Positions 1 through 64,000 of a DNA stretch of 64,000 nucleotides are shown here, piece after piece. Numbering within the stretch: the first letter of the stretch is position 1; each line of letters opens with the position of its first letter. The notes beneath the pieces are model-generated. The model searched no databases. It worked only from the letters and a program-made list of their open reading frames with translations, and had not been told where the DNA came from. Source of the stretch: Octopus vulgaris (Eukaryota). The translations under genes were made by a program, and so were the position numbers. The stretch covers positions 51,150,001-51,214,000 of the forward strand of contig OX597828.1 of NCBI GenBank assembly GCA_951406725.2, given 5' to 3'.

Positions 1-680
1 CATGACAGAGTCGGCCAGTATTTACACTGGACAATATGTCGGCATTATAAAATCAAAACAGCTGACAAATGGTATAAACATCGTCCTGAAGCTGTGACTG
101 AGGGAGAAAATGTGTCCATTCTGTGGGACTTCCCCGTGCAGACCGACAGGACTATAAAAGCCAATAAACCGGATATCATTATAAAAGATCAGACAAAAAG
201 GATGTGTTTATTAATTGACATGAGTATTCCCTGTGATCACAATATAGCGGCAAAAGAATTTGACAAGATTATTAAATATAAAGACCTGCTAATGGAAAGT
301 GAAAAAATGTGGCATCTCAAGGCGACTACAGTACCAGTGATTGTAGGATCTCTAGGAATGATAAAAAAGGCACTGAAACCTATTTGAAAATGATTCTAGG
401 CTTACCATCCCTACAGGAAGTGCAAAAAATCGTATTAACTGGAACGGCTCATGTACTGAGAAGAGCACTATCGCTGTGAAAATAACATCCATCCATGAAT
501 TTATTTTTTTATTAATTTTTAAATACATATGTTATCTGTGAATTTGCGCGTGTAATCTGGGAATGCATACAATGTCCTAGGTGTATGGAAAACCTAGGTG
601 TATGGAAAACACTCTGCCCTAGGTGTATGGAAAACACTCGGCGAGAAACGGAAGAAAATTTGAAGAAAGAAGGAAAAAAC
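1..680 (+). mobile_element. 3' fragment of R4/Dong-like non-LTR retrotransposon (RLE domain plus 3' UTR), truncated by window edge
   Basis: Translation HDRVGQYLHW...ILWDFPVQTDRTIKANKPDIIIKD...IDMSIP...KIIKYKDL matches the PD-(D/E)xK restriction-like endonuclease C-terminus of R2-superfamily elements; ends in (TAA)n at ~681-815. Confidence 0.85.
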
Positions 681-3037: not shown

Positions 3038-3071
<34 letters not shown>

Positions 3072-12822: not shown

Positions 12823-12926
12823 CATCATCATCATCATCATCATCATCACATCATCATCATCATCACCATCATCATCATCATCGTCGTCATCATCATCATC
12901 AATATTATTATTATTATTATTATTGA

Positions 12927-13471
12927 TTGAGAGAGCAGTGCATGCCATCAAAGTGACACTGGGGTAAAATATACGAAGCCCAGTATACCCATCATGACTA
13001 CCCGTCTGATAAGTGTACACCAGGCACATGCATCACAACCATATGTGCGTGACATGGTGATCTCATATCAAGATAAACAGCACATGACCTTGCAGGTGGG
13101 GCCCAGTTAGAATTTTCTTCAGGTTGAGTAGCCCATCCCGCTCAAAAGGTCCCTGAATAAGGGTTGTTTAAGGATGTTGAAAGAACCACCCATGTTTCCA
13201 GAGGTGAATTATTCAAACCCCAAAGAATCCCTCTCAACACATGGCTATGATGCTCCCCCACTACTTCTGCTCGTGATCAGAGATGCACATATCGTCAGCC
13301 ACTAAGGGACATGCTCAACTGGTTAAGGTCAAGCAACTGACAAGCAAATCTGTGGTATTGAGCAGAATATTTGCTGTAGCCCATCTTTTATACCAAGACA
13401 AAACAATGTACATGATAACACTTCCAATCAGTTAAGATCAGAAGCCATGAGAGCCACTGCCTGGTACTGCA

Positions 13472-13472
<1 letters not shown>
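12927..13472 (-). mobile_element. ~550-bp non-coding (TAA)n-targeted element, near full length
   Basis: Reverse complement of 24779-25335; (TTA)n on both sides. Deleted or partial copies follow at 13570-13720 and 13836-13985. Confidence 0.85.
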
Positions 13473-17355: not shown

Positions 17356-17358
<3 letters not shown>

Positions 17359-17571
17359 ATGTAAAGTATAGAAGCCATCTTATCATGGCTAACCACATTG
17401 GGGAGGGGGTGTTACTGTAGCTTTATAGCCCCAAGAGATCTTCGTCTCTAGCTGGCTTTAGACACAATATGTCAGCTAGAGACGAAGATCTCTTGGGGCT
17501 ATAAAGCTACAGTAACACCCCCTCCCCAATGTGGTTAGCCATGATAAGATGGCTTCTATACTTTACATTAT
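17356..17571. repeat. Apparently perfect inverted repeat: 99-bp arms, 18-bp spacer, in (TA)n
   Basis: 17356-17454 is the reverse complement of 17473-17571. Confidence 0.95.
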
Positions 17572-17613
17572 CGAGCGATTACTGTTTCAATCTCATTCTG
17601 AGATTTAATTATG

Positions 17614-17664
<51 letters not shown>

Positions 17665-24723: not shown

Positions 24724-24778
<55 letters not shown>

Positions 24779-24780
<2 letters not shown>

Positions 24781-25334
24781 GCCCTGATGCAGTACCAGGC
24801 AGTGGCTCTCATGGCTTCTGATCTTAACTGATTGGAAGTGTTATCATGTACATTGTTTTGTCTTGGTATAAAAGATGGGCTACAGCAAATATTCTGCTCA
24901 ATACCACAGATTTGCTTGTCAGTTGTTTGACCTTAACCAGTTGAGCATGTCCCCTAGTGGCTGACGATATGTGCATCTCTGATCACGAGCAGAAGTAGTG
25001 GGGGAGCATCATAGCCATGTGTTGAGAGGGATGCTTTGGGGTTTGAATAGTTCACCTCTGGAAACATGGGTGGTTCTTTCAACATCCTTAAACAACCCTT
25101 ATTCGGGGACCGTTTGAGCGGGATGGGCTACTCAACCTGAAGAAAATTCAAACTGGGCCCCACCTGCAAGGTCATGTGCTGTTTATCTTGATATGAGATC
25201 ACCATGTCGCGCACATATGGTTGTGATGCATGTGCCTGGTGTACCTTTATCAGACGGGTAGTCATGATGGGTATATTGGGCTTCGTATATTTTACCCCAG
25301 TGTCACTTTGATGGCATGAACTGCTCTCTCACTC

Positions 25335-25335
<1 letters not shown>
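24779..25335 (+). mobile_element. ~550-bp non-coding (TAA)n-targeted element, full length
   Basis: Four near-full copies in the window; (AAT)n on both flanks; no long ORF. Confidence 0.85.
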
Positions 25336-25419
<84 letters not shown>

Positions 25420-32827: not shown

Positions 32828-32899
<72 letters not shown>

Positions 32900-32900
<1 letters not shown>

Positions 32901-33450
32901 GAGTGAGAGAGCAGGGCAGGCCATCAAAGTGACACTGGTGTAAAATATACGAAGCCCAGTATACCCATCATGACTACCCGTCTGATAAGGGTACACTAGG
33001 CACATGCATCACAACCACATGTGCGCGAGATGGTGATTTCATATCAAGATAAACAGCGCATAACCTTGTAGGTGGGGCCCAGTTAGAATTTTCTTCTGGT
33101 CGAGTAACCTATCCCGCTCAAAAGGTCCTTGAATATGGGTTGTTTAAAGATGTTGAATGAAACACCCATGTTTCCAGAATTATTCAAACCCAAAAGAATT
33201 CCTCTCAACACACAACTATGATGCTCTCCCACTACTTCTGCTCGTGATCAGAGATGAACATATCGTCAGCCACTAAGGGACATGCTCAACTGGTTAAAGT
33301 CAAACAACTGACAAGCAAATCTGTGGTATTGAGCAGAATATTTGCTGTAGCCCATCTTTTATACCAAGACAAAACAATATACATGATAACACTTCCAATC
33401 AGTTAAGATCAGAAGCCATTAGAGCCACTGCCTGGTACTGCATCAGGGCT
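32900..33450 (-). mobile_element. ~550-bp non-coding (TAA)n-targeted element
   Basis: Reverse complement of 24779-25335; (TTA)n flanks. Confidence 0.85.
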
Positions 33451-33713
33451 ATTATTATTATTATTATTATTATTATTTTATTATTGATAGTAGTAGTAGT
33501 AGTATTATTATAGCACGCGGAGCAAAATACTTTGTGGCATTTCTTCTCAGTTCTGAGTTCAAATTCCTCCTTTTGTGGTCGATAAATTAAGATCAAGTGA
33601 AATGTTGGGGTCCATGTAATCGATTACTTCTCTCCTTCAAACTTTCAGGCCCCTTGTATCTTTAGCAGAAATGATTATTAATATAGTTGTTGTTGCTGTT
33701 GTTGTCGTTGTTG

Positions 33714-38902: not shown

Positions 38903-39312
38903 CGAGCTGGTAGAAACGTTAGCAGGCCGAGCGAAATGCTTAACGGTATTTCGTCTGTCGTTACATTCTGAGTTCAAATTCCGCCGAGGTCGACTTTGCC
39001 TTTTATCCTTTCGGGGTCGATTAAATAATTACTAGTTACGCACTGGGGTCGATATAATCGATTTAATCCGTTTGTCTGTCCCTATTTGTTCTCTCTGTGT
39101 TTAGGCCCTTGTGAGTTATAAAGAAATAGGTATTTCGTCTGCTACTACGTGCTGAGTTCAAATGCCACCGAAGTCGACTTTGCCTTTCATTCTTTCGGGA
39201 TCGATTAAATAAGTACCAGTTACGCACTGGGGTCATTGTAATCGACTTAATGCCTTTGTCTGTCCTTGTTTGTCCCCTCCATGTTTAGCCCCTTGTGGGC
39301 AATAAAGAAATG
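38903..39312 (+). mobile_element. SINE family B dimer with ~16-bp flanking direct repeat
   Basis: Two tandem units ending ...aaagaaat; tatacggaaggaacga on both sides. Confidence 0.8.
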
Positions 39313-46744: not shown

Positions 46745-47190
46745 TCTGGCAGAATCGTTTGCATGGAGAGAAAAATGCAAAGCGGTATTTCGTTCGACGA
46801 GCTGGCAGAAACGTTAGCACGCCGGGCGAAATGCGTAGCCGTATTTCGTCTGCTGCTACGTTCTGAGTTCCAATTCCGCCGAGGTCGACTTTGTCTTTCA
46901 TCCTTTCGGGGTCGATTAAATAAGTACCAGTTACGCACTGGGGTCGATATAATCGACTTAATCCGTTTGTCTGTCCTTGTTTGTTCCTTCTATGTTTAGC
47001 CCCTTGTGGGTAGTAAAGAAATAGGTATTTCGTTCGTCTTTACGTTCTGAATTACAATTCCGCCGAGGTCGACTTTGCCTTTCATCGTTTCGAGGTCGAT
47101 AAAATAAGTACCAGTTATGCACTGGGGTCGATGTAATCTCCTGTTCCCCTCGCCACAAAGTTCAGCTCTTGTGCCTATTGTAGAAAGGAT
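46745..47190 (+). mobile_element. SINE family B tandem cluster
   Basis: Homologous to 38903-39312. Confidence 0.8.
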
Positions 47191-58838: not shown

Positions 58839-58901
58839 TATATATATATATGAATAAATAAATAAATGGAGTTGAACGAAGATGTTAACAGAATTCCTTT
58901 A

Positions 58902-58983
58902 CTCTCGACATATGTTTCGAAGACAACATGGTTTTATTCCAAAGGAATAAACGGTGCAAGATGCAATCTTCTCATCAGGAAAG
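58902..58983 (-). ncRNA. Type I hammerhead ribozyme motif, canonical core
   Basis: CUUUC-CUGAUGA-GAAGA..(extended)..UCUUC-GAAA-CAUAUG-UC-GAGAG; palindromic stem III ACAUAUGU; GUC site. Confidence 0.85.
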
Positions 58984-59632
58984 AAAGGGAGCCTCTCTCA
59001 ACAACAAGACAAAACAATAATTGCGATGACTGCCTACGTGGTAAACAAAACGATAATAAGTGTTTAAAAAAACCGTTAGTAGAATTGACGTCAAAGTTAG
59101 ATAGTAGGAAGAGAAGAGTTAAAGGAATAATAAGTAGGGAACAAGTAGAGAGGGAGGGATGCGTTGATTAAAAGAATGTTCAAACGCTTAGGAAAGAATT
59201 TCTCTATTGAAGTGGAGTGCACGTTCAAGCTATAATGACTATCGAAATCATTTATATGAGTAAAAAGTATGTTTCTGCCAGTGTTTACATTTATACTTAT
59301 AGAAAAATCGTAAAATGTAAACACTGGCAGAAACATACTTTTTACTCATATAAATGATTTCGATAGTCATTATAGCTTGAACAATTAGCTTAACGTGCAC
59401 TCCACTTCAATAGAGAAATTCTTTCCTAAGCGTTTGAACATTCTTTTAATCAACGCATCCCTCCCTCTCTACTTTTCCCTACTTATTATTCCTTTAACTC
59501 TTCTCTTCCTACTATCTAACTTTGACGTCAATTCTACTAACGGTTTTTTTAAACACTTATTATCGTTTTGTTTACCACGTAGGCAGTCATCGCAATTATT
59601 GTTTTGTCTTGTTGTTGAGAGAGGCTCCCTTT

Positions 59633-59714
59633 CTTTCCTGATGAGAAGATTGCATCTTGCACCGTTTATTCCTTTGGAATAAAACCATGTTGTCTTCGAA
59701 ATATATGTCGAGAA
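59633..59714 (+). ncRNA. Type I hammerhead ribozyme motif (mirror copy)
   Basis: CTGATGA 59638-59644, GAAA 59698-59701, GTC 59707-59709; stem III carries a C>U change giving a U-G wobble. Confidence 0.82.
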
Positions 59715-60106
59715 TAAAGGAATTTTGTTAACATCTTCGTTCAACTCCATTTATTTATTTATTCATATATAACACACAAATTTCTGCACATGAACCCGGA
59801 GTTTCTACCCTTGGACAGGTCGCTTCAACCGTGTTTCTGACGTGAATTTGCTACCCTGGTATCGGTTCATCGAATTTTCCATGTTGACGGTAAACTTAGG
59901 ACAATTCATTCACCTATCTATATATATATATATATATACAAAATTAGAAAATGGAGAAACATACTTAAATCAATCAAAGATCAACCATCAGATAATACCC
60001 AATCAATACTTTATTACACCATTACATAACAGCAAAACATTATACAAAATATATTGTAAATATAATTAGACAAGGAAATAGAAATATAAAATATAATTAT
60101 ATCATA

Positions 60107-62954: not shown

Positions 62955-63342
62955 CCATTCTACTAAAGGCACAAGGCCTGAAAATTGTGGGGAGGGGACT
63001 AGTCAACCCGAATGCGTGACTAGTACTTAATTTATCGACCCCGAATGGATGAAAGGCGAAGTCGACCGCGGCAACATTTGAACTCAGAACGTAACGGCAG
63101 ACGAAATGCCTATTTCTTTACTACCCACAAGGGGCTAAACACAGAGGGGGCAAACAAGGACAGACAAACGGATTAAGTCGATTACATCGACTCCAGTGTG
63201 TAACTGGTACTTATTTCATCGACCCCGCAAAGATAAAAGGCAAAGTCGACCTCGGCGGAATTGGAACTCAGAACTTAGCGGCAGACGAAACATTGCTAAG
63301 CATTTCGCCCGGCGTGCTATCGATTTGGCCAGAACCGCCGTC
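62955..63342 (-). mobile_element. SINE family B dimer
   Basis: Reverse complement of 46795-47190. Confidence 0.8.
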
Positions 63343-63722
63343 TTTTGATAATAATGATAATATTAGTGATAATAATTTTTGGTTTGTTAATCGTTAGCAC
63401 CACACAACACAGGAGTGTACTTATTGGAATGATGGGAGGCATTGAGATGGTAAAATCAGAAATAATAAGCAGTTTCTAATAGTACTTCATCCGATGAAGC
63501 ACACGCAGGCAGCTGCCGTTGAACAATATTCAAATACATACTAATTATTCAGAGTAATCCTTCATAACGTTCAGTGAATATGAACCGGGCAACTTAAAGC
63601 TGATGTGGGGTGCAGAAACATAGTGCCGTGATGCATTATTAAAGCTTGTTTAACTTCCATCCGCGTGTTATACATGTATGTATATGTATATATATATATA
63701 TATCTATATATATATATATGTA

Positions 63723-63877
63723 CTTTATTAAAAGCAGCAGAAAATTCAACAAAACCTGTTACTCTGAGTTTCACATTGCCGTTCGTCGGACAGTTTTTAG
63801 CAAAAACTGTCCGACGAACGGCAACGTGAAACTCAGAGTAACAAGTTTTGTTGAATTTTCTGCTGCTTTAAATAAAG
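63723..63877. repeat. Fold-back inverted repeat (76-bp arms, 3-bp spacer) carrying two divergent hammerhead motifs
   Basis: + copy 63803-63849: aaaacUGU-CCGACGA-ACG gcaa CGU-GAAA-CUC a GAG-UA-ACAaguuuu; mirror copy on - at 63751-63797; (TA)n flanks. Confidence 0.9.
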
Positions 63878-63945
63878 CATATTACTCTACCACTGGTATT
63901 GAGTACTCTGTTTTCCACCTTGTTTCACATTTATGTGTTTACTCC

Positions 63946-64000
<55 letters not shown>

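What the first reader, a model, noticed from the sequence alone, without database searches (positions are those of the whole stretch)
63723..63948. Minimal fold-back made almost entirely of two back-to-back U4C hammerheads
Seen: 76-bp arms meet 3 nt apart, just upstream of each ribozyme. The core is CCGACGA, stem II is 3 bp with a GCAA (GNRA) loop, stem III is near-palindromic ACUC-A-GAGU, and the site is GUA. A ~70-bp tail and (TA)n flanks repeat the architecture at 58845 and 17356 in unrelated sequence, suggesting a shared insertion mechanism.
Basis: partly seen in the sequence, partly recalled or inferred. Interest (0 to 1): 0.7.

Follow-up and report, generated by a model that had tools for sequence, protein, structure and literature searches.

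The report
Mirrored stub of Penelope-like retrotransposon
This 226-base palindrome is one of more than a thousand head-to-head stubs of the tail end of a Penelope-like jumping gene; its two hammerhead motifs are mirror copies that would pair with each other rather than cut, and the odd U4C core marks older lineages of the family, while the intact young copies carry the normal core.

Summary
The feature is a minimal inverted insertion of a Hydra-clade Penelope-like element (3,361-nt unit, 711-aa RT plus GIY-YIG ORF) into (TA)n. At least 1,236 near-minimal fold-backs of this family exist in the genome. U4C is not fixed: 1,601 exact core motifs have C, 3,647 have U, 18 have A/G. All 38 arms scored beside intact ORFs are canonical; older-looking subfamilies carry C. 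Stem II is 2 bp family-wide, 3 bp only in some lineages. In any transcript one hammerhead is antisense and the other is buried in a 76-bp duplex, so the stub is likely inert. Two regularities are useful. Every cleanly scored inverted insertion has one tailed and one tail-less end (20 of 20 in pattern-selected loci). 5' ends pile up within 10 nt upstream of the ribozyme with a sharp edge at -8, and not at its cut site. Both fit twin priming at two internal RT start sites on an uncleaved RNA, running off a likely transcription start (inferred). The architecture is in print, and this scan already reported it for other families in this genome. Known kind; modest mechanistic value.

The parts
63680..63722 (.). 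Interrupted (TA)n target microsatellite, left flank
63723..63798 (-). Inverted arm: pLTR positions 1-76, ends at the family's short (tail-less) 3' end ...AATAAAG|TA
63751..63798 (-). Type I hammerhead motif, core CCGACGA 63789-63783, predicted cut after 63760; private C>T gives G-U in stem II
63799..63801 (+). Inversion junction AGC = family positions -3..-1 upstream of the right arm (one shared T with the left arm), inside the -10..-1 hot spot of 5' ends
63802..63877 (+). Direct arm: pLTR positions 1-76
63802..63849 (+). Type I hammerhead motif: core 63811-63817 (U4C at 63812), stem II/GNRA loop 63818-63827, GAAA 63828-63831, palindromic stem III 63831-63839, predicted cut after 63840; private G>A at 63844 breaks a stem I pair
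63878..63947 (+). 70-nt tail between the family's two fixed 3' ends; in full-length copies it runs on into the ORF leader
63948..63995 (.). (TA)n target microsatellite, right flank
17356..17614 (+). Unrelated fold-back: stub of a roughly 360-nt tandem hammerhead-bearing repeat (motif not included in this copy), about 45-nt tail, (TA)n flanks
58845..59916 (+). Unrelated larger fold-back with canonical CUGAUGA hammerheads and a long stem II at 59638 (+) and 58978 (-), about 145-nt tail, (TA)n flanks; parent not traced

Best explanation
The fold-back is the shortest insertion product of a Hydra-clade Penelope-like retrotransposon, likely made when the element's RT-endonuclease cut a (TA)n repeat, primed one cDNA from each DNA end at the two fixed internal start sites of an uncleaved RNA, ran off near that RNA's likely 5' end, and the two cDNAs were joined head to head. 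Shown: parent element with intact ORFs, two fixed 3' ends 70 nt apart, one of each per inverted insertion, (TA)n targets, variable junctions with a sharp edge at -8, no pile-up at the ribozyme cut site, lineage-restricted U4C. Inferred: that the two ends are RT start sites (by analogy to Frangieh 2024), that -8 is the transcription start, that joining uses short microhomologies, and that the stub's hammerheads are inactive passengers.
For: Walking upstream from copies of the arm reaches RT and GIY-YIG coding sequence. 20 fetched ORF loci gave 21 reading frames of 720+ codons and a 3,361-nt unit in partial tandems with inverted 5' copies; arm+tail is 93-95% identical to the window's. Hydra-clade motifs RWK, DKT, CxCX5C, CxxC, CxH all present (against Craig 2021). 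At least 1,236 near-minimal fold-backs genome-wide, reversed-pattern control 0. Long+short rule: 20 of 22 divergent pairs in pattern-selected loci, the other 2 with a partial tail; 18 of 24 in BLAST/ORF-selected loci, 5 with an internal junction, 1 unscorable; no long+long or short+short among 46; p = 2e-6 for 20 of 20. 17 of 19 in an overlapping sample. 5' ends of 100 arms chosen on positions 49-76 only: 31 at -10..-1, 4 at -59..-11, 26 beyond -60, 39 inside +1..49, of which 1 at 37-42, itself an internal deletion. Hairpin buries the sense motif.
Against: No RNA 5'-end data: only contigs were available, so the start site at -8 rests on DNA junctions and an initiator-like TCCATT (consensus recalled, not tested). 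ORF-bearing copies do not stop at -8: 0 of 20 junctions, 15 run more than 120 nt further upstream, 4 start at 70-78, 1 at 113, so long copies need a second kind of template (multi-unit or circular RNA). The two arms of 44 fold-backs differ mostly at CpG sites and do not show two source lineages, so two separate RNA templates are not shown. Pfam found no family in the ORF, and clade placement is by motifs and by eye, with no tree against reference PLEs.
Confidence: 0.8

Rival explanations
1. Same parent element, but the inversion arises by self-priming (fold-back of one cDNA or use of an antisense template, as Arkhipova 2013 proposed), and the -8 edge is an RT pause or a splice-acceptor effect (TTCCATTCTAG|C) rather than the RNA's 5' end.
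For: Many junctions are centred on short palindromes (CTAG, GAATTC, TTAA). Arms of one insertion share a lineage. Arkhipova 2013 reads junction palindromes as self-priming. In D. virilis the intron's 3' end maps to helix I of the hammerhead.
Against: Many junctions are asymmetric, for example -6/+34, +1/+30, -9/+20. Self-priming gives no reason for the second arm always to end at the other fixed site. A pause should also stop RT on its second pass in tandems, but 0 of 20 ORF-bearing copies stop there. The AG is replaced by AA in older subfamilies whose fold-backs turn at a similar place. Copies keep the bases upstream of the AG, so templates were unspliced there.
Confidence: 0.15
2. The stub is itself a small non-autonomous, MITE-like or retrozyme-like element that is transcribed and re-mobilised as a unit, with working ribozymes.
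For: Over 1,200 near-minimal fold-backs, with recurring junction types. Non-coding hammerhead repeats mobilised by PLEs are described (Li 2026 abstract), and the 17356 family looks like one.
Against: Junctions form a continuum from -8 to +43 and beyond -120. Diagnostic bases follow the coding lineages. No tandem monomers of the stub were seen in the loci read. The sense motif is paired over its whole length in any read-through RNA. Recurring junctions are explained by the CTAG palindrome.
Confidence: 0.04
3. Assembly artefact or chance palindrome.
For: Palindromes beside (TA)n are hard to assemble.
Against: Arms differ at 3 sites and in length, the same layout recurs over 1,200 times with control 0, and contigs of public runs show the same two 3' ends followed by TA.
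Confidence: 0.01

Closest known systems
Hydra-clade EN+ Penelope-like elements (Craig et al. 2021, PMC8557442; passages, section 11 and supplement parts read), including Hydra-1_Obim and Hydra-2_Amil
   Same: C-terminal GIY-YIG, RWK, DKT, CxCX5C, CxxC and CxH motifs; (TA)n targets; partial tandems, inverted 5'-truncated copy and one-sided tail; hammerhead with a 4-bp palindromic stem III and 1-nt loop. Hydra-2_Amil has the same stem I (ctgt/acag), stem III (actc-n-gagt) and cut base.
   Different: Unit 3.36 kb against under 3 kb for most; tail 70 nt against 30-40; stem II cut to 2-3 bp; U4C in older lineages, whereas all 26 Hydra rows of File S2 have CUGA (their descriptor could not find CCGA). 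The Hydra-1_Obim hammerhead and length differ, so this is another family.
Poseidon element of Anolis, PAc (Frangieh et al. 2024, PMC11167929; parts 1-2 of 4 read)
   Same: Two internal RT start sites define the tail; both strands of AT-rich DNA are cut and extended; uncleaved RNA is the main substrate; no ends at the hammerhead cut site.
   Different: Other clade. In PAc the hammerhead and start sites overlap the ORF start; here they lie upstream of it. In the parts read, the paper gives no one-long-one-short count and no upstream run-off edge.
PLE hammerheads (Cervera and de la Pena 2014, PMC4209133; parts 1-2 of 4 read)
   Same: Type I motif in the pLTR, palindromic stem III suited to dimers, extra base after A9, opposite-strand pairs 100-700 bp apart noted as truncated PLEs.
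   Different: Their metazoan motifs have a long stem II; the core variant they report is U3-A8, not U4C.
U4C viroid hammerhead (Ambros and Flores 1998; not read, known only through Perreault 2011, PMC3088659, passages)
   Same: The same core change, reported to lower cleavage considerably in vitro yet allow infectivity.
   Different: A single viroid variant, against a retroelement lineage with at least 1,601 genomic copies.

Membership tests
EN+ Penelope-like element insertion | Parent with a single ORF, RT plus C-terminal GIY-YIG-type endonuclease | tested here: met
   711-aa ORF with FDIIDFYPSI, MGAYDGAE, YRDD, GVVY...YTG; Pfam gave no hit on it, only on homolog P0002 (GIY-YIG, E 1e-5)
EN+ Penelope-like element insertion | Partial tandems forming pLTRs, inverted 5'-truncated copy | tested here: met
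EN+ Penelope-like element insertion | Tail at one end only | tested here: met
   no long+long or short+short among 46 pairs; 70 nt rather than 30-40
Hydra clade | RWK, DKT, CxCX5C linker, CxxC and CxH around E/N | tested here: met
   positions 37, 113, 562, 667, 695
Hydra clade | (TA)n target and hammerhead in the pLTR | tested here: met
Hydra clade | Groups with Hydra in an RT phylogeny | not tested
   reference sequences compared by eye only
Hydra clade | Generally under 3 kb | tested here: not met
   unit 3,361 nt; a tendency in the paper, with one listed member at 3,045 bp including an inverted copy
Type I hammerhead ribozyme | Three stems around the core, in type I order | tested here: met
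   recurrent variation among 226 arms is at 4, N7, loop 2, 11.1, loop 3 and the stem I mismatch, plus lower CpG-type noise (positions 6-24 partly constrained by the search pattern; no compensatory pair changes seen)
Type I hammerhead ribozyme | Canonical core CUGANGA | tested here: not met
   CCGACGA in both arms; canonical in the young lineage
Type I hammerhead ribozyme | Self-cleavage | not testable with these tools
   monomer fold -0.6 kcal/mol against MFE -4.8; stem III dimer -7.4
Non-LTR retrozyme | Tandem non-coding monomers of a few hundred nt | tested here: not met
   the repeating unit is the 3.36-kb coding element

The most novel reading that the evidence does not exclude
The family is a natural experiment on what PLE hammerheads are for. 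Lineages with the weakened U4C core spread to over 1,600 copies almost only as run-off stubs from linear, uncleaved RNA, while the lineage that regained U4 makes about ten times more longer-than-unit tandems (71 of 3,647 against 3 of 1,601) because a working ribozyme yields the circular or multimeric template that full-length, transcribable copies need.
Probability: 0.15. Interest if true: 0.65.

Novelty: new member of a known kind. Interest (0 to 1): 0.3.

Why it matters
As a sequence feature it is ordinary debris of a Penelope-like element. Its value is as a footprint. The full PLE insertion cycle and the role of PLE hammerheads are still open (Craig 2021; Frangieh 2024). A young family with intact ORFs, two fixed start sites always used one per end, a sharp 5' edge and two natural ribozyme alleles gives exact predictions for an in vitro or cap-mapping test. 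It also shows that searches requiring CUGANGA would miss about 30% of this family's exact core motifs.

Tried and rejected
Rfam gathering scan: nothing. Pfam on ORF pieces and the whole ORF: nothing. First guess of Nematis or Neptune clade rejected after the alignment and text of Craig 2021. One search gave 0 junctions for U4C because that lineage has a different base after the tail; corrected (3 hits), and a fourth (L204) escapes the exact pattern. One search's 5'-extent routine was faulty (local alignment not anchored); its bins were discarded and redone. Test for two different RNA templates per fold-back: no signal, differences are mostly CpG-type. Arm-to-arm divergence as a clock did not separate the lineages (1.9% in 9 C4 pairs, 1.8% in 11 U4 pairs). 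Share of arms reaching beyond -60 by lineage: 8 of 36 C4, 19 of 43 U4, p = 0.057, not significant. Depletion of ends at the cut site is not significant (1 of 39, 4.8 expected, p = 0.08); only the absence of a pile-up is claimed. Expression: no RNA holder listed; contigs only, so no start, end or strand. Ambros and Flores 1998 was not held. Look-up of earlier findings by sequence found nothing. The 58845 family was not traced to a parent. Not-in-print statements rest on five paper searches only (hammerhead plus U4C as a whole word gave 1 paper). Unseen supplements of Cervera 2014 and Li 2026 may list CCGA cores.

Full report
Observation. The palindrome is as described: 76-bp arms at 63723-63798 and 63802-63877 with three mismatches, a 3-nt spacer, a 70-nt one-sided tail and (TA)n on both sides. 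Each arm, read outward, holds a type I hammerhead with core CCGACGA, a GCAA-capped stem II, GAAA, the palindrome ACTC-A-GAGT and a GUA site. These were the only two hits of a both-strand scan of the window (its stem II limit missed the long-stem motifs at 58978 and 59638 found). Rfam reports nothing. The RNA folds into one hairpin of -125.4 kcal/mol, z -21.

It is a repeat. A DNA search of the own genome (2.8 Gb) with arm plus tail gave 1,237 candidates, of which 40 were scored, at 97-100% identity. The host is likely an octopus; this is an inference from genome size, repeat content and earlier scan notes and is not pinned to any assembly. Exact-pattern counts over the whole genome, each with a reversed control of 0: 8,102 for arm positions 49-76; 3,647 core motifs with U4, 1,601 with C4, 18 with A or G; 1,236 fold-backs whose arms meet within 20 nt. 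The window's layout is therefore common.

Parent element. Copies end at the same 3' points but extend variably 5'. Walking upstream led through about 1 kb of 3' UTR into GIY-YIG and RT coding sequence. A protein search found 5,712 candidates, 150 scored, many with 727-codon open frames. Twenty of these loci were fetched; they hold 21 frames of 720 or more codons, with mean nucleotide distance 0.7% among the 17 of equal length, arranged as partial tandems of a 3,361-nt unit with inverted 5' copies. In tandems the hammerhead arm and tail run directly into the ORF leader, so the window's sequence is the pLTR end. The 711-aa protein has RWK, DKT, CxCX5C, CxxC and CxH, the Hydra-clade marks listed by Craig et al. 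2021. Its RT3-4 region resembles their Hydra rows by eye, and the hammerhead shares stem I, stem III and cut base with Hydra-2_Amil. It has 1,074 homologs among 7,996 scored candidates, the best at 58% identity, nearly all unnamed. Pfam names nothing in it.

U4C. It is neither fixed nor random decay. C4 is about 90 times commoner than A/G at that site and is linked to other bases: among 193 arms, U4 goes with A11.1 and A44 (76), C4 with G or T at 11.1 and G44 (63 and 33). All 38 arms scored in the ORF loci are CUGAUGA. The six C4-lineage loci examined gave only broken or partial ORF pieces, 87-93% identical to the young protein, or none. In a tree of 34 of 110 tailed arms, the U4/A11.1 group is nested (96/89) among C4 arms, and the most divergent subfamily is C4 except one copy that fits CpG decay. 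The root is a midpoint and the bootstrap had not settled. So C4 is probably the older state here and U4 a reversion; CpG-type changes run about four times faster than others between paired arms, which makes that reversion easy. The T>C change is also in contigs of runs coded as organisms A, B and C (7, 80 and 51 contigs; none in shallow D). Among 226 arms the recurrent variants fall at position 4, N7, loop 2 (GCAA/GGAA), 11.1, loop 3 and the stem I mismatch, which fits a kept structure, though the tail is conserved too and part of the motif was in the search pattern. Perreault 2011 cites U4C as much slower in vitro but viable in a viroid. Hammerhead-to-ORF junctions number 71 for U4 and 3 for C4: odds ratio 10.6, p 1e-8 against the core counts. 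The patterns differ slightly, divergent junctions are missed, and lineage age is a confound.

How the stub forms. Two regularities stand out. First, the family has two 3' ends, after position 76 and after about 147, also seen in run contigs. Of 46 divergent pairs none was long+long or short+short; 38 were long+short, 20 of them in loci chosen without regard to ends (p 2e-6). An overlapping sample gave 17 of 19, the rest with partial tails. [quoted passage not shown] One start site per DNA end explains the rule (inference). Second, 5' ends of the first 100 listed arms selected on positions 49-76 fall 31 at -10..-1, 4 at -59..-11, 26 beyond -60 and 39 inside the arm. Six end exactly at -8, one doubtful case at -9, none from -10 to -20, although an AT-rich stretch just upstream offers better microhomology. 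There is no pile at the cut site (1 row at 37-42, an internal deletion). Templates were thus uncleaved, as for PAc, and the simplest reading of the edge is the RNA's 5' end at an initiator-like TCCATT (consensus recalled; D. virilis Penelope has an internal promoter in its pLTR). Priming in the leader of such an RNA gives cDNAs of about 84 and 155 nt, which joined head to head give this stub. Against a single template: 0 of 20 ORF-bearing junctions stop at -8 and 15 run much further, so long copies come from multi-unit or circular RNA. Self-priming, proposed by Arkhipova 2013, remains a rival, and the arms do not prove two templates.

Function of this copy. In any transcript one motif is antisense and the other is fully paired to it. 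The monomer fold is marginal (-0.6 kcal/mol) and stem III suits a dimer (-7.4). The + strand copy has a private G>A at 63844 in stem I. The stub is most likely inert; if transcribed it would be 76 bp of double-stranded RNA.

Neighbours. The 17356 fold-back belongs to a family with 1,560 candidates (40 scored) that continues as a roughly 360-nt tandem unit with its own hammerhead-like core. The 58845 fold-back has canonical cores with a long stem II.

Verdict. A new family member of a known kind, with an architecture in print (Craig 2021; Cervera 2014; Arkhipova 2013) and already reported by this scan for other families of this genome. The U4C lineage and the two quantitative rules add modest, testable value. 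Papers seen: PMC4209133 parts 1-2 of 4; PMC11167929 parts 1-2 of 4; PMC8557442 passages, section 11, supplement parts 2 and 54 and two supplement searches; PMC3088659, PMC2377424, PMC3846280, PMC13282606 passages; Li 2026 abstract and outline.

Noticed in passing
window 17356-17614; loci L255-L274: Stub of a young roughly 360-nt tandem repeat whose hammerhead-like core reads TTGACGA in most loci shown and CTGACGA in two; retrozyme-like and likely PLE-mobilised.
   Followed up: partly
window 58845-59916: Large fold-back of another family with canonical CUGAUGA hammerheads, a stem II of about 50 nt and palindromic stem III; parent not traced.
   Followed up: partly
L079:2914-2966: In the young U4 lineage the predicted MFE pairs the core (UCUGA) with the stem III strand (UCAGA), an inactive fold that C4 would prevent; prediction only.
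   Followed up: no
window 63818-63827: The stem II plus loop ACGGCAACGT is identical to the loop-2 entry of Nematostella Penelope-2_NV in Craig File S2, as if the basal 7-bp stem II had been lost here; 10 nt, could be chance.
   Followed up: no
L081, L083, L084, L087: Four of 20 full-length copies begin at positions 70-78, almost exactly one unit upstream of the short 3' end.
   Followed up: no
L079:2992-2996 and 3063-3067: The template just past each fixed end has partial complementarity to (TA)n (CATAT; TCTA or TGTA), a possible primer-annealing aid.
   Followed up: no
G000:C1 fold-backs: A frequent junction, GCTAGAATCTAGC, would gain a second base of microhomology if RT added a C opposite a cap at -8; suggestive only.
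   Followed up: no
L091:367-1707 (-): A second, distant PLE family (35-48% amino-acid identity) lies next to a tandem of this one.
   Followed up: no
window 12850-13472, 24753-25409, 32832-33477, 38907-39233, 46802-47131, 63003-63332: Dispersed SINE-like repeats in both orientations and long (AAT)n arrays dominate the window.
   Followed up: no
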